Assembly: GCA_934120395.1 (NCBI GenBank)
Contig: CAKOTZ010000005.1
Coordinates: forward strand, 29,822-93,821
Source: an uncultured Clostridia bacterium
GTDB taxonomy: Bacteria; Bacillota; Clostridia; TANB77; CAG-508
Direction of reading: 5' to 3'
DNA: 64,000 bases
Shown: piece by piece, positions 50,601 to 56,906 of the stretch
Position numbering within the stretch: position 1 is the stretch's first letter
Layout: every line of letters starts with the position of its first letter
Made by a program: the position numbers and the translations under genes
Notes under the pieces: model-generated
What the model was told of the DNA's origin: nothing
The model's database searches: none
The model's input: the letters and a program-made list of their open reading frames with translations, nothing else

Positions 50601-51110
50601 TCAATAATATTTATTATATTCCACACATTTTTCTTCTAATAATTTAAAATTACAGCATCTTGATTTTATACTTTCTGATAATTTTCCATCGTTGTATAGT
50701 TTATATAATTTAAAAGATTTATTTTTTACTTGTTTATAATTTGCATTTAACCAATTTAATTGTTCTCGTAATAATCTCTGGTATTTTAATTCTGAAATAG
50801 TTAAAGTTTCTTTATTTAAATCAACTAAAGAGTAATTGTTGCTTGTTACTGGTATCATATTATTGAGATTGATTGCCCCTAATTCACCATCTTTAATTTT
50901 AAAAAAATCAATTGTATTTTTCATATTTTTGTGTTTAGGCTTCGGACTTGATAATGGTGCAAAATACTCACAAGTATCTATTTGAAATAATATTCCTATA
51001 AAAGGACGTATCTCTTTTTCATTTTTATTATATGCTACCTTATTATCAAATTTTCTTAAATAATCACAATAATCTGAATTAACTCTAACAATCTTTAAAT
51101 TTATAATCAT
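50601..51110 (-). CDS. Type III toxin-antitoxin ToxN/AbiQ-family endoribonuclease toxin
   Basis: MIINLKIVRVNSDYCDYLRKFDNKV...RPFIGILFQIDTCEYFAPLSSPKPKH... matches the AbiQ/ToxN N-terminal signature from memory. Preceded by tandem repeats and a terminator. Confidence 0.8.
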   Translation of the reverse strand: MIINLKIVRVNSDYCDYLRKFDNKVAYNKNEKEIRPFIGILFQIDTCEYFAPLSSPKPKHKNMKNTIDFFKIKDGELGAINLNNMIPVTSNNYSLVDLNKETLTISELKYQRLLREQLNWLNANYKQVKNKSFKLYKLYNDGKLSESIKSRCCNFKLLEEKCVEYNKYY

Positions 51111-51195: not shown

Positions 51196-51198
51196 CCC

Positions 51199-51306
51199 TT
51201 TTTTAAGTTCCAATTTAATGGCTGGAAACACCGCTTTTTTAAGTTCCAATTTAATGGCTGGAAACACCGCTTTTTTAAGTTCCAACTTTTTGGCTGGATT
51301 CACCAA
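51199..51306 (-). ncRNA. ToxI/antiQ-like antitoxin RNA: 2.8 tandem 36-nt repeats
   Basis: Plus-strand unit TTTTTTAAGTTCCAATTTAATGGCTGGAAACACCGC at 51199-51234 and 51235-51270 (identical), with a degenerate third copy at 51271-~51306. The copies are contiguous, with no spacers. Confidence 0.75.
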
Positions 51307-51432: not shown

Positions 51433-51463
51433 AAAAAACTTACCTTTGTATGGTAAGTTTTTT
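51433..51463. terminator. Cassette terminator T1
   Basis: AAAAAACTTACC tttgtat GGTAAGTTTTTT, a bidirectional design. Copies occur at 52716, 54056, 55146 and 56875. Confidence 0.7.
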
Positions 51464-51683
51464 GTTCTTCTCGCTAATGTAGTACCTATTTTCAATACAC
51501 TAAACTATCTCTTCCTAGCCGAAAGCAAAAATATATAAAATTTAAGAGTGAGTTCGACCTTGAAGCAGTCATTCACTACACAAGTTTAGAATGTGTTCAA
51601 TAAAATTTGAAAAGACTGTCGTTCAATCGCCTTGGAGAACGGAACGGCTAAATTTTCATATATTTTTGTGTAGGCGGTAACAC
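51464..51683 (-). repeat. Conserved ~220-nt 3' element, copy E1
   Basis: Runs from ...GTGTTACCGCCTACAC (directly after the G1 stop region) to ...GCGAGAAGAACA. More than 85% identical by eye to copies E2-E5. Confidence 0.75.
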
Positions 51684-51699
51684 AGCAGTTTCTAAAAAA

Positions 51700-52578
51700 C
51701 TACAATTTAGATTTAGAGATAATCACAACTGGGCGCACCCCAATTTTCTCGACGAAGTGATATCCACCGATGTTACCGCTGCTGTACACACACCACGTTT
51801 GGCCGAAGCCGGCGCCCTCATTTGCAAGCCAATAGTAAGTCCCAATATTTCTATAACTTGCCGCAACCCCTTCTGCTTCTGCTTTTGTTAAAAGTCGTCC
51901 ACTTCCACCTAAGTTGCTTCCAAATGTACTTGCTTGACCTTTTGCACTATCCCAATCATTATTACCTATAGTTGTTTTACATAGCAAGGTTACATTAGTT
52001 CCGTCATCTCCTATTACATAAAAACTATATCCTCCAAGACTTACTGTTTCTCCATTTGAATACTTTGTTTTTTTGTTTACCTTTAGTGCATATGTTGCCG
52101 TTTTTGCATTGTAATTTCCTGTTGCTGCACTTGTTACTGTTATTGTTGCTGTTCCATCCACATTCTTTGGCGTTACTGTTATTGTATTTCCGCTTATAGT
52201 AGCTGTTGCAATATCTTCGTTTGATGTTTTTACGCTTAACTCTCCTCCACTTGTATTTTTTATTACGTCAAATGTTATTGTATTTGGATAAGTACATTCT
52301 CCACTTGTTGCTGAAAGTTCTATTTCTCCTTCTTTTTTATCTTCTACTTTATTACTCTCATTTTTTTCTAATTTATTGAAATAATCCTCAACTTTGTTTA
52401 GTAATTCCTGCTCATTTTTACTGCTTTCTTTATATTTATCTACACTAGACTGTGCCTTCTTAATTAGCCCATTCTCTCCTAGTACCATCGATAAACTCAC
52501 TCCCGCTAAAATTAGCAAAACAATAATTGTGATTATCAATGCTACCAATGTAATTGCTTTGTTACTTTTCAAGTTCAT
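51700..52578 (-). CDS. Pilin-like N-terminus / Ig-like / DUF1566-like variable protein G1 (long form)
   Basis: MNLKSNKAITLVALIITIIVLLILAGVSLS hydrophobic N-terminus. Ig-like repeat (ELSATSGECTYPNTITFDV...TITVTSAATG). C-terminal ...GRLLTKAEAEGVAASYRNIGTYYWLAN..[GC-rich NNC codons]..GVRPVVIISKSKL. Confidence 0.8.
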   Translation of the reverse strand: MNLKSNKAITLVALIITIIVLLILAGVSLSMVLGENGLIKKAQSSVDKYKESSKNEQELLNKVEDYFNKLEKNESNKVEDKKEGEIELSATSGECTYPNTITFDVIKNTSGGELSVKTSNEDIATATISGNTITVTPKNVDGTATITVTSAATGNYNAKTATYALKVNKKTKYSNGETVSLGGYSFYVIGDDGTNVTLLCKTTIGNNDWDSAKGQASTFGSNLGGSGRLLTKAEAEGVAASYRNIGTYYWLANEGAGFGQTWCVYSSGNIGGYHFVEKIGVRPVVIISKSKL

Positions 52579-52715
52579 TTTTATCCCTCTTTCCTTTGTG
52601 TTTCTACATAAAATTACTGATTTATTTTGTTCACGACTAAGCAATATTATGTAATTTTATGTTAATTAATTAACCATATTTTATACTATTATCTTGAACT
52701 TGTAAAGTACAATTG

Positions 52716-52746
52716 AAAAAAACTTACCTTTACATGGTAAGTTTTT
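52716..52746. terminator. Cassette terminator T2
   Basis: AAAAAAACTTACC tttacat GGTAAGTTTTT. Confidence 0.7.
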
Positions 52747-52965
52747 GTTCTTCTCGCTGATGTAGTAGCTATTTTCAATACACTAAACTATCTCTTCCTA
52801 GCCGTAAGAAAAATATATAAAATTTAAAAGTGAGTTCGACCTTGAAGCAGTCATTCACTCCACAAGTTTAGAATGTGTTCAATAAAAATTGACAAGGCTA
52901 TTGTTCAAGCGCCTTGGAGAACGGAACGGCTAAATTTTTATATATTTTTGTGTAGGCGGTAACAC
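52747..52965 (-). repeat. Conserved ~220-nt 3' element, copy E2
   Basis: Same element, between the G2 stop and T2. Confidence 0.75.
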
Positions 52966-52978
52966 GACAGTAAAAAAA

Positions 52979-53845
52979 CTACAATTTAGATTTAGAGATA
53001 ACCACAACTGGGCGCACCCCACCGTTGTAGAATTTAGTGTTGTGTGAGTCGATTCTACCTCTGCTGTCCACATAATACGCAAGTTCGTAGCCGTTGCGGT
53101 CGGTGCCGCCCGCATCTGCAAGCCAATAGGCAGTTCCAATATTTCTATAACTTGCTGCCACTCCTCCTGCTTCTGCTTTTGTTAAAAGTCGTCCACTTCC
53201 TCCTAAGTTGCTTCCAAATGTACTTGCTTGACTATTTGCGCTACTCCAACCAGTACCACCTATAGTTGTTTTACATAGCAGGGTTACATTAGTTCCATCA
53301 TCTCCTATTACATAAAAACTATACCCCCCAACGCTTACCGTTTCTCCATTTGAATACGTTGTTTTTTTATTTACCTTTAATGTGTAGTCAACTGTCCCTT
53401 CTTTATATTCTTTTGTTCCTGCACTTGTTACTGTTATTATTACAGTTCCATCTATATTTTTTGGTGTTACTGTTATTTTATTTCCACTTATAGTAGCTGT
53501 TGCAATATCTTCGTTTGATGTTTTTACGCTTAACTCTCCTCCACTTGTATTTTTTATTACGTCAAATGTTATTGTATTCGGATAAGTACATTCTCCACTT
53601 GTTGCTGAAAGTTCTATTTCTCCATCTTTTCTATTTAGTAAATCAAAGTATTCTTCTACTTTATTTAACAAATTCTGCTCGTTTACATAGCTCTCCTGAT
53701 ACTTATTCACGCTTGACTGTGTCTTGTTAATTAGCCCATTATCTCCTAGCACCATTGATAAACTCACTCCTGCTAAAATTAGCAAAACAATAATTGTGAT
53801 TATCAAAGCCACTAACGTAATTGCTTTGTTACTTTTCAAGTTCAT
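52979..53845 (-). CDS. Pilin-like / Ig-like / DUF1566-like variable protein G2 (long form)
   Basis: Start at MNLKSNK behind AAAGGATG. Same architecture as G1. The variable region at about 53015-53135 has 50-67% G+C (hand count). Confidence 0.8.
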   Translation of the reverse strand: MNLKSNKAITLVALIITIIVLLILAGVSLSMVLGDNGLINKTQSSVNKYQESYVNEQNLLNKVEEYFDLLNRKDGEIELSATSGECTYPNTITFDVIKNTSGGELSVKTSNEDIATATISGNKITVTPKNIDGTVIITVTSAGTKEYKEGTVDYTLKVNKKTTYSNGETVSVGGYSFYVIGDDGTNVTLLCKTTIGGTGWSSANSQASTFGSNLGGSGRLLTKAEAGGVAASYRNIGTAYWLADAGGTDRNGYELAYYVDSRGRIDSHNTKFYNGGVRPVVVISKSKL

Positions 53846-54055
53846 AAAAAACATCCTTTCATTTGTGTTCAATTTTATATTCAATCAATAAACATTATAT
53901 AACATAGTGTTTTAAAATACAATACAACATTTTGTTTTATTTTGCATATTTATATTAAATATTATTAACCTAAAATTGCTATTTTATCCATACAAATAAC
54001 ACTATTAAACTTTCATAACATACTTTCTTCTTAAAGATTCCTTTATGAAAAAAAC

Positions 54056-54089
54056 GCAAAAAAACTTACCTTTGTATGGTAAGCTTTTT
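54056..54089. terminator. Cassette terminator T3
   Basis: AAAAAAAACTTACC tttgtat GGTAAGCTTTTT. Confidence 0.65.
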
Positions 54090-54306
54090 GTTCTTCTCGC
54101 TAATGCATTGCTAAGTTTAAGCACTAAACTACCTCTTCCTAGCCGTAAGAAAAATATATAAAATTTAAAAGTGAGTTCGACCTTGAAGCAGTTATTCATT
54201 CCACAAGTTTAGAATGTGTTCAATAAAATATGAAAAGGCTGTCGTCCAAGCGCCTTGGAGAACGGAACGGCTAAATTTTCATATATTTTTGTGTAGGCGG
54301 TAACAC
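54090..54306 (-). repeat. Conserved ~220-nt 3' element, copy E3
   Basis: Same element, downstream of G3 and hairpin B. Confidence 0.75.
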
Positions 54307-54312
54307 GAAAAA

Positions 54313-54354
54313 TATGTAGGAAAAACGACATTTTTCTTTGCCATTTTCCTACAT
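54313..54354. other. Hairpin B downstream of the G3 variable region
   Basis: ATGTAGGAAAA ...20-nt loop... TTTTCCTACAT. The same hairpin occurs at 55493-55534 and 57143-57184. Confidence 0.6.
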
Positions 54355-54402
54355 ATTTTTTTACCATTTACAAAGGTGCTATTTCTTCCAGAAATTAGGG
54401 CT

Positions 54403-55008
54403 TTATTTAGTTTTAGAGATAACCACAACTGGGCGCACCCCAAGGCTGATGTCGACGCTGGTGCCGATGTTACCGTCGTCGTTCACATACCACGCGTAGC
54501 CACGACTAATTAGATACGCATCTGCAAGCCAATAGCCAGTTCCAATATTTCTATAACTTGCTGCAACTCCTTCTGCTTCTGCTTTTGTTAAAAATCGCCC
54601 ACTTCCTCCTAGGTTGCTTCCAAATGTAATTGCTTGATTTTCAGTGCTCCTCCAATCACCATTACCTATAATTGTTTTGCATAGCAGAGTTACATTAGTT
54701 CCGTCATCTCCTATTACATAAAAATCATATCCCCCCAGGCTTACTGTTTCTCCATTTGAATACGTTCTATCTTCCAGTTTATTACTCGCATTTTTTTCTA
54801 ATTTATCAAAGTATTCTTCTACCTTATTTAACAAATTTTGCTCATTTACATAGCTTTCTTGATATTTATCTACACTTGACTGTGCCTTGTTGATTAATCC
54901 ATTTTCTCCTAGCACCATTGATAAACTCACTCCCGCTAAAATTAGCAAAACAATAATTGTGATTATCAATGCTACTAACGTGATTGCTTTGTTACTTTTC
55001 AAGTTCAT
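54403..55008 (-). CDS. Pilin-like / DUF1566-like variable protein G3 (short form, no Ig-like module)
   Basis: 201 aa. The N-terminus and C-terminal domain are homologous to G1/G2. Variable region about 54440-54545. Confidence 0.8.
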   Translation of the reverse strand: MNLKSNKAITLVALIITIIVLLILAGVSLSMVLGENGLINKAQSSVDKYQESYVNEQNLLNKVEEYFDKLEKNASNKLEDRTYSNGETVSLGGYDFYVIGDDGTNVTLLCKTIIGNGDWRSTENQAITFGSNLGGSGRFLTKAEAEGVAASYRNIGTGYWLADAYLISRGYAWYVNDDGNIGTSVDISLGVRPVVVISKTK

Positions 55009-55145
55009 TTTTATACCTCTTTCCTTTGTATTCCTACATAAAATTGCTATTTTAGTTTGTCCATATCTAAGCCATATTATGTAATTTTATATTAATTAGT
55101 TAACCGTATTCTATACTATTTTTTTGAACTTGTAAAGTACAATTG

Positions 55146-55176
55146 AAAAAAACTTACCTTTACATGGTAAGTTTTT
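55146..55176. terminator. Cassette terminator T4
   Basis: AAAAAAACTTACC tttacat GGTAAGTTTTT. It is separated from E4 by an ~80-nt insertion (55177-55256) not seen in the other units. Confidence 0.65.
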
Positions 55177-55256
55177 GTTCTGTAAATTGTCAAGCAAAAA
55201 TTAACAAAAATTCTCATATTAAATTGAACAATTATTCTCAACTAAAAAAATATATT

Positions 55257-55475
55257 TGTTCTTCTCGCTAATGCATTGCTAAGTTTAAGTTACTAAACTA
55301 CCTCTTCCTAGCCGTAAGAAAAATATATAAAATTTAAAAGTGAGTTCGACCTTGAAGCAGTCATTCACTACATAAGTTTAGAATGTGTTCAATAGAATTT
55401 GAAAAGGCTGTCGTTCAAGCGCCTTGGAGAACGGAACGGCTAAATTTTCATATATTTTTGTGTAGGCGGTAACAC
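55257..55475 (-). repeat. Conserved ~220-nt 3' element, copy E4 (follows the template-like segment, not a gene)
   Basis: Same element. Here the upstream partner is the AAC-rich segment plus hairpin B. Confidence 0.75.
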
Positions 55476-55492
55476 GATAGTTAGCAAAAAAA

Positions 55493-55534
55493 TATGTAGG
55501 AAAAACGACATTTTTGTTTGCCATTTTCCTACAT
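55493..55534. other. Hairpin B copy abutting the template-like segment
   Basis: ATGTAGGAAAA...TTTTCCTACAT, immediately 3' (gene orientation) of ...ACC AGC AAT. Confidence 0.6.
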
Positions 55535-55535
55535 A

Positions 55536-55623
55536 ATTGCTGGTGTTGTTACCGTTGTTGTTCACATACCACGCGTTGTTGTTGCTGTTTGCATCTGCAA
55601 GCCAATAGTTAGTTCCAATATTT
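55536..55623 (-). other. Free-standing AAC-rich DGR-template-like (TR-like) segment
   Basis: Coding orientation: AAT ATT GGA ACT AAC TAT TGG CTT GCA GAT GCA AAC AGC AAC AAC AAC GCG TGG TAT GTG AAC AAC AAC GGT AAC AAC ACC AGC AAT. It is homologous to the variable C-terminal regions of G1-G6 but not part of any ORF. Confidence 0.6.
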
Positions 55624-55786
55624 ACGACATAACAACCAGAGTTTGCTAGTACTCCCCTATATTAACCACCTTTTCTGGTGTTATTAATACCCTATTTTTC
55701 TCCAATTTGGTGCAGTTGCCCAAATTGAAGATTTACAGGTGCTATTTCTTCCAGAAATTAGCACCTTATTTAGTTTCCTTCGGAAA

Positions 55787-56662
55787 CTAAGGCAATTTAG
55801 ATTTAGAGATAACTACAACCGGGCGCACCCCAATATCGATATCGCCCATCCAGCCGATGATGCGTCCGTCTCTGAACACAAACCACGCGCCACTTCCGTT
55901 TGCATCTGCAAGCCAATAGTCAGTTCCAATATTTCTATAACTTGCTGCAACTCCTTCTGCCTCTGCTTTTGTTAACAATCGTCCTGTTCCTCCTAGGCTG
56001 CTTCCAAATGAGCTTGCTTGACTTTTTGCACCATTCCAACTATTAGTACCTATAGTTGTTTTGCATAACAATGTTACATTCGTTCCGTCATCTCCTATTA
56101 CATAAAATTCATAATTTCCTACTTTTACTGTGTCTCCTGTAGTATATGTCTTTTGTTTTTTTACGGTCAATGCATATGTTACGGATTTTGCATTATAGTT
56201 TCCTGTTGCTGCACTAGTTACTGTTATCGTTGCTGTTCCATCCACATTCTTTGGCGTTACTGTTATTGTATTTCCGCTTATAGTAGCTGTTGCAATATCT
56301 TCGTTTGATGTTTTTACGCTTAACTCTCCTCCACTTGTATTTTTTATTACGTCAAATGTTATTGTATTTGGATAAGTACATTCTCCACTTGTTGCTGAAA
56401 GTTCTATTTCTCCTTCTTTTTTATCTTCTACTTTATTACTTACATTCTTTTCTAATTTATCAAAGTATTCTTCTACCTTATTTAATAAATTCTGCTCATT
56501 TACATAGCTTTCCTGATACTTATTCACACTAGACTGTGTCTTGTTAATTAGCCCATTCTCTCCTAGCACCATTGATAAACTTACTCCCGCTAAAATTAGC
56601 AAAACAATAATTGTGATTATCAAAGCCACTAATGTAATTGCTTTGTTACTCTTTAAGTTCAT
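55787..56662 (-). CDS. Pilin-like / Ig-like / DUF1566-like variable protein G5 (long form)
   Basis: Same architecture as the other long forms. Variable region about 55830-55925. The stop is followed by a perfect 9-bp hairpin TTAGTTTCC gaa GGAAACTAA. Confidence 0.8.
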   Translation of the reverse strand: MNLKSNKAITLVALIITIIVLLILAGVSLSMVLGENGLINKTQSSVNKYQESYVNEQNLLNKVEEYFDKLEKNVSNKVEDKKEGEIELSATSGECTYPNTITFDVIKNTSGGELSVKTSNEDIATATISGNTITVTPKNVDGTATITVTSAATGNYNAKSVTYALTVKKQKTYTTGDTVKVGNYEFYVIGDDGTNVTLLCKTTIGTNSWNGAKSQASSFGSSLGGTGRLLTKAEAEGVAASYRNIGTDYWLADANGSGAWFVFRDGRIIGWMGDIDIGVRPVVVISKSKLP

Positions 56663-56874
56663 AAAAAACATCCTTTCATTTGTATTCAATTTTATATTCA
56701 ATTAATAAACATTATATAGCATAATGTTTTAAAATACAATACAACATTTTGTTTTATTTTGCATATTTATATTAAATATTATTGACCTAAAATTGCTATT
56801 TTATCCATACAAATAACACTATTAAACTTTCATAACATACTTTCTTCTTAAAGATTCCTTTATGAAAAAAACGC

Positions 56875-56906
56875 AAAAAAACTTACCTTTACATGGTAAG
56901 CTTTTT
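56875..56906. terminator. Cassette terminator T5
   Basis: AAAAAAACTTACC tttacat GGTAAGCTTTTT. Confidence 0.65.

What the first reader, a model, noticed from the sequence alone, without database searches (positions are those of the whole stretch)
55536..55623. Free-standing 88-nt AAC-rich segment homologous to the variable regions: a template-repeat-like element in the position where a DGR would carry TR
**What the segment is**
- In gene orientation it reads AAT ATT GGA ACT AAC TAT TGG CTT GCA GAT GCA AAC AGC AAC AAC AAC GCG TGG TAT GTG AAC AAC AAC GGT AAC AAC ACC AGC AAT.
- It has 10 AAC codons exactly where the paralogues vary.
- It lies downstream of G5, is not part of any ORF, starts abruptly (unrelated sequence upstream) and ends abruptly at hairpin B.

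**Comparison with G6 (same length over 24 codons)**
- Most differences fall on template adenines: AAC to TAC, AGC, ACC, AGC, GAC, GAC and ATC.
- Several differences do not: GCA to ATG, GGT to GGC, AAC to AAT, ACC to AGC.

**Caveats and context**
- The segment lacks the GC-rich GGGGTGCGCCC end block that closes the variable regions.
- It is therefore either a truncated or decayed TR, or a template used by an unconventional mechanism.
- It is followed by the same ~220-nt conserved element that follows each target gene.
Basis: seen in the sequence. Interest (0 to 1): 0.8.

Follow-up and report, generated by a model that had tools for sequence, protein, structure and literature searches.

The report
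Orphan, truncated DGR template repeat
The 88-base AAC-rich segment is a genuine template repeat of the kind used by diversity-generating retroelements, sitting in a row of five lectin-like surface-protein genes. It has lost its 3' end, no reverse transcriptase lies within about 73 kb, and the genes it once rewrote look frozen, so it is most likely a fossil.

Summary
**Observation confirmed.** Window 55536-55623 (minus strand; homology really starts at 55624) carries 10 AAC codons. It aligns with the 3' variable regions (VRs) of five tandem paralogues and is identical in three independent assemblies.

**It behaves as a template.**
- 44% of its A sites differ from the VRs, against 13% of non-A sites (p = 3.5e-13). 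No VR shows this bias when used as a mock template.
- VR codons are 45% NNC against 8.6% in the gene scaffolds (p = 7e-55).
- The C-terminal domain models as a C-type lectin fold, and relatives hit Pfam DUF6273, the VR domain of a canonical phage DGR target.

**It is not a working cassette.**
- No reverse transcriptase or Avd is in the 64-kb window or in 9.2 kb beyond it.
- The repeat stops 26-47 nt before the GC-rich block that closes every VR, although the NNC footprint continues past that point.
- Four of five VRs need indels to align, and 12-15% of non-A sites differ.
- The VRs are identical across samples. One is unchanged in a same-species strain that lacks the repeat.

**Flanking element.** The ~220-nt element is the shared 3' flank of all paralogue cassettes and is not specific to the repeat.

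**Verdict:** relic of a DGR (about 0.65). Use by a distant reverse transcriptase is not excluded.

The parts
55536..55624 (-). Template repeat (TR) fragment, 88-89 nt, with 10 AAC codons. It is truncated at the 3' end relative to the VRs.
   Evidence: Identical in L001 and L011.
55493..55535 (-). Hairpin B with a following T-run, terminator-like. It is fused directly to the last TR base. The same hairpin follows Ga (57143-57183) and Gc (54314-54354), and paralogues in another species (L020, L024).
   Evidence: (family D12).
55624..55735 (-). Structured spacer between Gb and the TR: hpC 55700-55730, hpD 55659-55690, leader 55624-55658. Within the window it is found only here, but it has a homologue after a related gene in L018.
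   Evidence: (fold z-score -7.3).
55737..55788 (-). Two hairpins at and after the Gb stop codon: hp0 55772-55788 (7-bp stem, GAA loop) and hpA 55737-55766 (13-bp stem). They are candidate DGR target hairpins. hpA is 100% conserved in L018 and L024, and degenerate copies follow Ga and Gc.
   Evidence: (family D15). Compared with the criteria in PMC3240598.
55787..56662 (-). Paralogue Gb (291 aa from the ATG): N-terminal hydrophobic anchor, Ig-like middle region, C-terminal lectin-fold domain. VR at 55820-55933.
57232..57849 (-). Paralogue Ga (205 aa), VR at 57259-57390. It is the only window VR that is collinear with the TR.
54403..55008 (-). Paralogue Gc (201 aa), VR at 54430-54549. Its VR is identical in the orthologue of the TR-less strain L014.
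52979..53845 (-). Paralogue Gd (288 aa), VR at 53009-53143.
51700..52578 (-). Paralogue Ge (292 aa), VR at 51730-51849.
55250..55492 (-). Copy of the ~220-nt conserved 3' flank element. The other copies are at 56928-57149, 54109-54330, 52768-52989 and 51486-51707. A 19-bp AT-rich inverted repeat brackets a 105-nt core.
   Evidence: (family D3).
55148..55175 (-). Bidirectional terminator hairpin that closes the element. Copies are at 56877-56904, 54060-54087, 52718-52745 and 51434-51461.
   Evidence: (family D10).

Best explanation
The segment is the surviving 5' two-thirds of the template repeat (TR) of a diversity-generating retroelement (DGR).

**Proposed history**
- The DGR once rewrote the C-terminal lectin-fold loops of a family of membrane-anchored surface proteins. 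It did so by adenine-mutagenic reverse transcription followed by cDNA replacement of the variable region.
- In this lineage the 3' part of the TR has been lost. That part includes the GC-rich block equivalent to the initiation-of-mutagenic-homing site, and presumably the adjoining spacer, Avd and RT genes.
- The loss looks like a deletion that fused TR base 88 to the terminator-like hairpin B.
- The five paralogues keep the chemical footprint of past mutagenesis (NNC codons, high GC) but now evolve as ordinary genes.

**Shown:** template-type relation to the VRs; truncation relative to the VR footprint; absence of an RT within about 73 kb; VR stasis.

**Inferred:** that an RT once lay next to the repeat, and that a deletion removed it.
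For: **The segment has the properties of a template**
- Pooled over the five VRs, 76 of 173 A sites are mismatched against 33 of 259 non-A sites (p = 3.5e-13), and 70% of all mismatches fall on template A.
- When each VR is used as a mock template, only 21-36% of mismatches fall on A, and p ranges from 0.03 to 0.8.
- Per-VR Fisher p values run from 0.024 down to 9e-5.
- 10 of 12 Asn codons are AAC, in a genome where 17% of Asn codons are AAC.

**The VRs carry a DGR footprint**
- 45% of VR codons are NNC against 8.6% in the scaffolds (p = 7e-55).
- VR GC content is 0.5-0.6, against 0.34 in the scaffolds and 0.30 in the window.

**The protein context fits a DGR target**
- The AlphaFold2 model has pLDDT 96, and its top Foldseek hits are C-type lectin domains at probability 0.99.
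- Relatives P0138 and P0156 hit Pfam DUF6273. That is the same family as the VR domain of a canonical phage DGR target in L017, which has the order target, TR, RVT_1.
- The L017 TR shares the string TGGTAYGTNAACAACAACGGNAAC with this segment.

**The TR is truncated**
- It is 88 nt long, while the VRs measure 114-135 nt to the GC block.
- NNC codons continue 3' of the point where the TR stops.

**No enzyme is nearby**
- Pfam scans of all large ORFs found no RVT_1.
- A motif scan found nothing RT-like.
- tblastn with a DGR RT and Avd found nothing in the window or in any related locus.
- The 9.2 kb beyond the window end holds housekeeping genes only.

**The VRs are static**
- L011 equals the window over 12,315 nt with 4 SNPs, none of them in a VR.
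- Gb plus the TR are identical in L001.
- The Gc orthologue in L014 (97.8% flank identity, no TR) has 21 substitutions, all within nt 6-364 and none in the VR.
- P0003 keeps the Ga VR.

**No recent templating**
- 6-8 non-A mismatches per VR (12-15%), and indels in 4 of 5 alignments.
Against: - The AAC codons are pristine, which is unexpected for a long-dead sequence in a 30% GC genome.
- The TR lies between a structured upstream region that is conserved across species and a terminator-like hairpin. It could therefore be a discrete small RNA gene.
- The TR is closer to every VR at non-A sites (13%) than the VRs are to one another (about 30%), so it has itself drifted little.
- A VR in the TR-less strain (L014_10001) is collinear with the TR and has only 4 of 52 non-A mismatches. 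A TR of this sequence was therefore in use within the species' history, and may persist elsewhere in the genome.
- Only about 73 kb of the genome could be inspected.
- The three assemblies with identical VRs are almost clonal (4 SNPs in 12 kb), so they sample little evolutionary time.
Confidence: 0.65

Rival explanations
1. The local copy is a partial duplicate of a full-length master TR. The master lies next to an RT elsewhere in the same genome, and the paralogues here are remote targets of that DGR. The local fragment itself does nothing.
For: - DGRs can act on remote targets (PMC5758913).
- L014_10001, in a strain without the local TR, matches the TR collinearly with 4 of 52 non-A mismatches.
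- None of the related loci (L002, L007, L010, L014, L016) has an RT within 10 kb, yet all carry NNC-rich VRs. If an RT exists in this clade, it is never adjacent to these genes.
Against: - VR lengths differ (114-135 nt), so a single master TR cannot fit them all.
- The VRs are frozen between samples and strains.
- No other copy of the TR core was found in GTDB genomes, JGI metagenomes or IMG/VR, but this species appears to be absent from those collections.
Confidence: 0.15
2. The segment is a working, minimal TR. It is transcribed as a short RNA ending at hairpin B, and a reverse transcriptase encoded far away copies it. It rewrites only the 5' two-thirds of the VRs, without the canonical 3' GC-rich homology.
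For: - The AAC codons are intact and the 5' boundary is sharp.
- A terminator-like hairpin immediately follows the TR, and structured hairpins conserved across species precede it.
- A self-priming or nicked-RNA priming model exists for DGR RNA (PMC5703328, listed). I did not read that paper in detail.
Against: - There is no 3' homology for cDNA integration, which is required in the BPP-1 system (PMC3240598).
- The NNC footprint extends beyond the TR end.
- Every VR has 12-15% non-A mismatches.
- The VRs are identical in three assemblies.
- The promoter scan does not exceed chance.
- The upstream hairpin module occurs in L018 with no TR behind it.
Confidence: 0.1
3. The segment has nothing to do with a retroelement. 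It is the remnant of a sixth paralogue's variable region, or a chance Asn-rich low-complexity stretch.
For: - It lies in a tandem array that is rich in indels and module shuffling.
- The paralogue complement differs between strains.
Against: - Neither flank has homology to paralogue coding sequence.
- AAC usage departs from the genome's usage at p = 1.2e-6.
- Only this segment shows the A-specific asymmetry. No real VR does.
Confidence: 0.04
4. The junctions result from misassembly of repeats in a metagenome.
For: The region is full of repeats, and related contigs often end at these repeats.
Against: Both junctions, spacer to TR and TR to hairpin B, are identical in three assemblies from different samples and assemblers (window, L001, L011).
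Confidence: 0.02

Closest known systems
Canonical diversity-generating retroelements (Bordetella phage BPP-1 mtd-avd-TR-brt; Treponema TvpA; Legionella LdtA)
   Same: - AAC-rich untranslated repeat homologous to the 3' end of a gene for a C-type-lectin-fold protein.
- Differences concentrated on template adenines.
- NNC codons in the VR.
- GC-rich block at the VR end.
- Hairpins just downstream of the VR.
   Different: - No RT or Avd within about 73 kb.
- The TR lacks the 3' third, including the GC block.
- VR and TR are not the same length in 4 of 5 cases.
- 12-15% non-A divergence per VR.
- No sign of current diversification.
DGRs with several or non-adjacent target genes (survey of Wu et al. 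2018, PMC5758913)
   Same: One template type relates to several paralogous targets in an array, and to targets in other loci and strains.
   Different: In the surveyed cases the TR sits beside the RT and only the targets are remote. Here the TR sits beside a target and the RT is what is missing.
Phage DGR in IMGVR_UViG_3300031867_000912 (locus L017)
   Same: - Its TR contains TGGTACGTGAACAACAACGGCAAC, as does the window TR.
- Its target ends in a DUF6273 domain, and relatives of the window's C-terminal domain also hit DUF6273.
   Different: - L017 is complete. A 151-aa ORF with no Pfam hit sits in the Avd position, the TR ends in a GC-rich stretch, and an RVT_1 gene follows directly.
- Its sequence is otherwise unrelated, and its GC content is higher.
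Cassette-type surface-protein arrays with conserved flanks, such as Neisseria pilE/pilS with the Sma/Cla repeat (from my own knowledge, not tested here)
   Same: - Tandem paralogues share a near-identical 5' end and a conserved 3' non-coding element.
- There is mosaic divergence between strains.
- The array content varies between strains.
   Different: - All copies here are complete genes with their own start, promoter region and terminator.
- No recombinase or G4-type initiator was identified.
- This is an analogy for the ~220-nt element only, not for the AAC-rich segment.

Membership tests
Diversity-generating retroelement (DGR) | A DGR-clade reverse transcriptase encoded next to the TR | tested here: not met
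   - No RVT_1 hit in any ORF of 100 aa or more scanned in the window.
- No RT motif in a plausible ORF.
- tblastn with the L017 DGR RT at E up to 10 found nothing.
- The 9.2 kb beyond the window end holds housekeeping genes only.
Diversity-generating retroelement (DGR) | TR-VR differences enriched at template adenines | tested here: met
   - 44% of A sites are mismatched against 13% of non-A sites (p = 3.5e-13).
- The control with VRs as mock templates shows no comparable bias.
Diversity-generating retroelement (DGR) | TR and VR of equal length and (near) identical at non-A positions, as expected of an active pair | tested here: not met
   - 6-8 non-A mismatches per VR.
- Indels in 4 of 5 alignments.
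- The best match anywhere is L014_10001, with 4 of 52 non-A mismatches.
Diversity-generating retroelement (DGR) | TR spans the whole VR, including the 3' GC-rich IMH-equivalent | tested here: not met
   The TR ends 26-47 nt before GGGGTGCGCCC and runs straight into hairpin B.
Diversity-generating retroelement (DGR) | VR lies at the C-terminus of a C-type-lectin-fold (or Ig-fold) variable protein | tested here: met
   - AlphaFold2 model with pLDDT 96.
- Foldseek top hits are C-type lectin domains, probability 0.99, E about 0.01, TM 0.46.
- Relatives hit DUF6273.
- Pfam gives no direct hit for the window protein itself.
Diversity-generating retroelement (DGR) | Hairpin or cruciform shortly downstream of the VR: 7-10 bp GC-rich stem, 4-nt GRNA loop, 4-34 bp from the VR (PMC3240598) | tested here: inconclusive
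   - hp0 has a 7-bp stem with 43% GC and a GAA loop. It starts 32 nt after the GC block and is present only behind Gb.
- hpA has a 13-bp stem with a GGA loop.
- The form is similar, but neither loop length nor GC content matches the consensus.
Diversity-generating retroelement (DGR) | Accessory gene (avd or HRDC) in the cassette | tested here: not met
   - There is no ORF between Gb and Gc other than spurious ORFs of 48 aa or less.
- tblastn with the L017 Avd-position protein found nothing.
Diversity-generating retroelement (DGR) | VR hypervariable within or between populations | tested here: not met
   - The VRs are identical in the window, L011 and L001.
- The Gc VR is identical in L014.
- Read-level data could not be examined.
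Structured non-coding RNA family (for the ~220-nt element) | Match to a curated family, or covariation supporting a fold | tested here: not met
   - No Rfam hit at gathering score or at E up to 1.
- 0 of 45 predicted pairs show compensatory change in 11 copies.

The most novel reading that the evidence does not exclude
The segment is a live, stand-alone template RNA gene consisting of a structured leader, an 88-nt TR and a terminator hairpin. A reverse transcriptase encoded far away in the chromosome, or on a prophage, uses it in trans. It rewrites part of the ligand-binding loops of a whole array of anchored lectin-fold proteins, and it homes without the canonical GC-rich 3' homology. VR length changes would arise by slippage on the AAC runs.
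Probability: 0.1. Interest if true: 0.75.

Novelty: new member of a known kind. Interest (0 to 1): 0.4.

Why it matters
**A blind spot in DGR surveys**
- As far as I know, surveys of diversity-generating retroelements start from the reverse transcriptase.
- Loci where only the template or the rewritten genes remain would therefore be missed.

**What this locus shows**
- A template fragment and the NNC/GC footprint in variable regions can be recognised without the enzyme.
- They can be used to read the history of a gene family. Here an uncultured, spore-forming gut Firmicute carries arrays of membrane-anchored lectin-fold proteins that were diversified by retro-mutagenesis and then fixed.
- The degree of NNC-to-NNT erosion offers a rough clock for when each copy was last rewritten. 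It ranges from 64% NNC in Ga to 8% in L010_10001.

**If the repeat is used in trans**
- It would be a DGR with its parts dispersed and with non-canonical homing requirements.
- That would be of real mechanistic interest.

Tried and rejected
**Searches for a second or longer TR copy**
- I scanned GTDB genomes, JGI metagenomes and IMG/VR with the TR core pattern and found no hits.
- A looser pattern found only an unrelated phage DGR, L017.

**Searches for relatives of the target protein**
- Scans of genome, metagenome and viral contigs found none.
- INPHARED phages gave no match by DNA or by protein.
- This lineage appears to be absent from those collections.

**Searches for the hairpin modules**
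- Hairpin A and the hpD/leader motif gave no hits in IMG/VR.

**Protein search with a hypothetical unmutated VR/TR translation**
- No candidates.

**Walking to an intact cassette through homologues**
- L018 has the homologous hp0-hpA-hpC-hpD module, but its tail resembles the upstream region of another paralogue, not a TR.
- The long contigs L020 and L024 end about 150 nt after the gene.
- L018 and L024 differ across the whole C-terminal domain. That is module exchange, not adenine mutagenesis.
- Ga and its positional counterpart in L014 differ by 6-14% throughout the gene. Their VR difference therefore cannot be dated as recent DGR activity.

**The ~220-nt element as an RNA**
- No Rfam match, no covariation, and no conserved ORF.

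**Promoters and the N-terminal anchor**
- The promoter scan of the region does not exceed the shuffled expectation.
- Neither Pfam nor NCBIfam recognises the N-terminal anchor as a prepilin signal, so I do not call these proteins pilins.

**A flawed search**
- The profile search of 1.84 billion representatives was dominated by the N-terminal anchor, because my alignment A1 included full-length homologues.

Full report
**What is at the coordinates**

On the minus strand, 55623-55536 reads AAT ATT GGA ACT AAC TAT TGG CTT GCA GAT GCA AAC AGC AAC AAC AAC GCG TGG TAT GTG AAC AAC AAC GGT AAC AAC ACC AGC AAT. It lies in the intergenic space between two members of a tandem array of five paralogous genes, all on the minus strand:
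- Ga: 57232-57849
- Gb: 55787-56662
- Gc: 54403-55008
- Gd: 52979-53845
- Ge: 51700-52578

Each paralogue encodes three parts:
- a nearly invariant N-terminal hydrophobic anchor (MNLKSNKAITLVALIITIIVLLILAGVS...);
- in three copies, an Ig-like insert;
- a C-terminal domain of about 120 aa that ends in ...YWLAD-variable-GVRPVVVISKSK.

The segment aligns with the variable 3' part of all five genes. Its 5' edge is sharp, at 55624. Its 3' edge is fused to a 43-nt hairpin followed by a T-run (hpB, 55493-55535). Only spurious ORFs of 48 aa or less overlap it. The same sequence with both junctions occurs in two other assemblies (L001, L011), so it is not a misassembly.

**Is it a template?**

With the segment as template and the five VRs as targets:
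- 76 of 173 A sites are mismatched against 33 of 259 non-A sites (44% against 13%, p = 3.5e-13).
- 70% of all mismatches fall on template A.

As a control I used each VR in turn as a mock template against the others. Only 21-36% of mismatches then fall on A, with p between 0.03 and 0.8. The VRs also differ from one another at about 30% of non-A sites. The segment is therefore central to all the VRs and is the only sequence with the asymmetry expected of a DGR template repeat.

Further support:
- Per-VR Fisher tests give p = 0.024 (Ga), 3.6e-4 (Gb), 6.6e-3 (Gc), 1.4e-3 (Gd) and 9e-5 (Ge).
- Ten of the twelve Asn codons are AAC, in a genome where 17% of Asn codons are AAC (p = 1.2e-6).
- The VRs carry the complementary footprint. 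45% of their codons are NNC against 8.6% in the scaffolds (p = 7e-55). Their GC content is 0.5-0.6, against 0.34 in the scaffolds and 0.30 for the window.

**The target protein**

- Pfam does not recognise the C-terminal domain directly.
- An AlphaFold2 model from 16 sequences has pLDDT 96. Its best PDB matches are all C-type lectin domains (probability 0.99, E about 0.01, TM about 0.46).
- More distant relatives found in the representative search (P0138, P0156) hit Pfam DUF6273 over the matching stretch.
- DUF6273 is also the VR-bearing domain of a complete phage DGR that I found with a loosened TR pattern (L017). In L017 the order is target, a small ORF, TR, then an RVT_1 gene. Its TR contains TGGTACGTGAACAACAACGGCAAC and ends in a GC-rich stretch.
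- The window genes are thus of a kind that DGRs are known to diversify.

**Why it is not a working cassette**

1. No enzyme.
   - Every ORF of 100 aa or more that I scanned is a housekeeping or unrelated gene: MurB, CofD, a debranching enzyme, RuvC, holA, ToxN, Gpr, DpaA, IF-2, NusA, UvrA and others.
   - No RT motif sits in a plausible ORF.
   - tblastn with the L017 RT and Avd-position protein at E up to 10 finds nothing in the window or in any related locus.
   - The 9.2 kb beyond the window end are also housekeeping genes.
2. The repeat is truncated.
   - It is 88-89 nt long, while the VRs measure 114-135 nt up to the GGGGTGCGCCC block.
   - NNC codons continue through the part of the VRs that the repeat does not cover.
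   - The template that made these VRs was therefore longer.
3. No VR is a recent copy.
   - Each has 6-8 non-A mismatches (12-15%).
   - Four of the five need indels to align.
4. The VRs are static.
   - L011, from another sample, equals the window over 12,315 nt with four SNPs, none in a VR.
   - L001, from a third sample, has the same Gb and TR.
   - L014 is a strain of the same species (97.8% identity in the flanking genes). It has a different set of paralogues, an IS256-type transposase, no Gb and no TR.
   - Even so, its Gc orthologue carries 21 substitutions, all within nt 6-364 and none in the VR.
   - P0003, from yet another sample, keeps the Ga VR.

**The surroundings of the repeat**

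Between the Gb stop codon and the TR lie four consecutive hairpins and a 35-nt leader. The hairpins are hp0 (55772-55788), hpA (55737-55766), hpC (55700-55730) and hpD (55659-55690). The region folds far better than shuffled sequence (z = -7.3).

- The whole module has a homologue behind a related gene in another species (L018). hpA is 100% conserved there, and hpC and hpD show compensatory changes.
- In L018, however, no TR follows. The tail resembles the upstream region of another paralogue.
- The modules are combined differently elsewhere:
  - L024: hpC joined to hpB.
  - L020 and L023: stop codon joined to hpB.
  - L021 and L022: neither hairpin.
  - Ga and Gc: hpA joined to hpB.
  - Gd and Ge: stop codon joined directly to the element.
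- The intergenic regions of this family are therefore modular and rich in indels.
- In that context, a deletion running from inside the TR to hpB is an unremarkable event.
- hp0 and hpA resemble the hairpin or cruciform that BPP-1 needs downstream of its VR. They do not meet the published consensus of a GC-rich 7-10 bp stem with a GRNA tetraloop (PMC3240598).

**The ~220-nt element**

- It is real. There are five copies in the window and more in L002, L007, L010 and L014, with 85% mean column identity.
- It ends at a bidirectional terminator.
- It also follows paralogues with an FGE-sulfatase-type C-terminus, and paralogues in strains without any TR.
- It has no Rfam match, no covariation (0 of 45 pairs) and no conserved ORF.
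- Copies of the element are 87-95% identical to the one behind the TR. That is lower than the 97.8% identity of the housekeeping flank between the two strains.
- I read it as the common 3' flank of a cassette that has been duplicated and homogenised. It is not part of the template mechanism, and its own function remains unknown.

**Most likely history, and alternatives**

The best-supported reading is a DGR relic (about 0.65). A DGR once sat behind Gb, or acted on this family, and wrote the NNC-rich loops. The enzyme genes and the 3' part of the TR were then lost.

Points that keep other readings alive:
- The AAC codons are intact.
- The TR has drifted little.
- A VR in the TR-less strain (L014_10001) is collinear with the TR and has only 4 of 52 non-A mismatches.
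- Only about 73 kb of the genome could be inspected.

I therefore keep 0.15 for a master TR and RT elsewhere, with this copy as a by-product, and 0.10 for genuine trans use of this minimal TR. A non-DGR origin (0.04) and an assembly artefact (0.02) are disfavoured by the control test and by the three concordant assemblies.

**Comparison with what is known**

- The locus works like, or once worked like, a DGR target array.
- It cannot be filed as a DGR. The defining RT is absent, the TR lacks the IMH-equivalent, and TR-VR identity at non-A sites fails.
- Published surveys describe remote targets, but there the TR sits beside the RT (PMC5758913).
- The papers I searched gave no description of a template left beside its target without an RT. 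I did not do an exhaustive literature review.
- I therefore rate this a new, degenerate member of a known kind, of moderate interest.

Noticed in passing
window 50601-51110 (-) and 51198-51298: A ToxN toxin gene (Pfam E = 7e-50) is preceded by 2.8 copies of a 36-nt tandem repeat, which looks like a ToxI antitoxin RNA array. This type III toxin-antitoxin system lies immediately downstream of the paralogue array, and ToxN is also present in the syntenic locus L014.
   Followed up: partly
window 58218-59100 (-): The DNA polymerase III delta subunit gene (holA) is read as two overlapping ORFs: 216 aa with the N-terminal domain and 100 aa with the C-terminal domain. The same 216-aa call appears in L011, L013 and L014. 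This suggests a conserved frameshift or a split gene rather than a sequencing error.
   Followed up: no
L014 10001-18193 versus window 51700-57849: Two strains with 97.8% identical flanks carry different paralogue sets between holA and toxIN. L014 has an IS256-type transposase, two genes with unrelated C-termini, no Gb and no TR. The array turns over quickly.
   Followed up: partly
L002 668-2815; L010 7720-8976 and 10858-12099: A second paralogue class has the same N-terminal anchor and the same ~220-nt 3' element, but an FGE-sulfatase-type C-terminus ending ...GFRTVLYIK. That is the commonest DGR target fold. No RT lies within 10 kb of these genes either.
   Followed up: partly
window 54403-55008 versus L014 15924-16529: All 21 substitutions between these orthologues fall within the first 364 nt and none within the last 242 nt. 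This mosaic pattern suggests recombination among the conserved 5' ends of the paralogues.
   Followed up: partly
L010 10001-10318: This family member's VR has only 8% NNC codons and a GC content of 0.29, with many TAT, GAT and AAT codons. It looks like an old VR eroded by AT-biased mutation, which suggests that the NNC fraction could date the last rewriting.
   Followed up: no
window 55700-55730 and 55659-55690 versus L018 1577-1670: Hairpins hpC and hpD keep their pairing through compensatory changes between two species, and hpA is 100% identical. The structured module behind the gene is conserved independently of the TR, and its function is unknown.
   Followed up: partly
N-termini of Ga-Ge, e.g. 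window 56576-56662 (-): The anchor MNLKSNKAITLVALIITIIVLLILAGVS accounts for most of the more than 14,000 representative proteins found at E up to 0.001 in the profile search. No Pfam or NCBIfam prepilin or signal model recognises it.
   Followed up: partly
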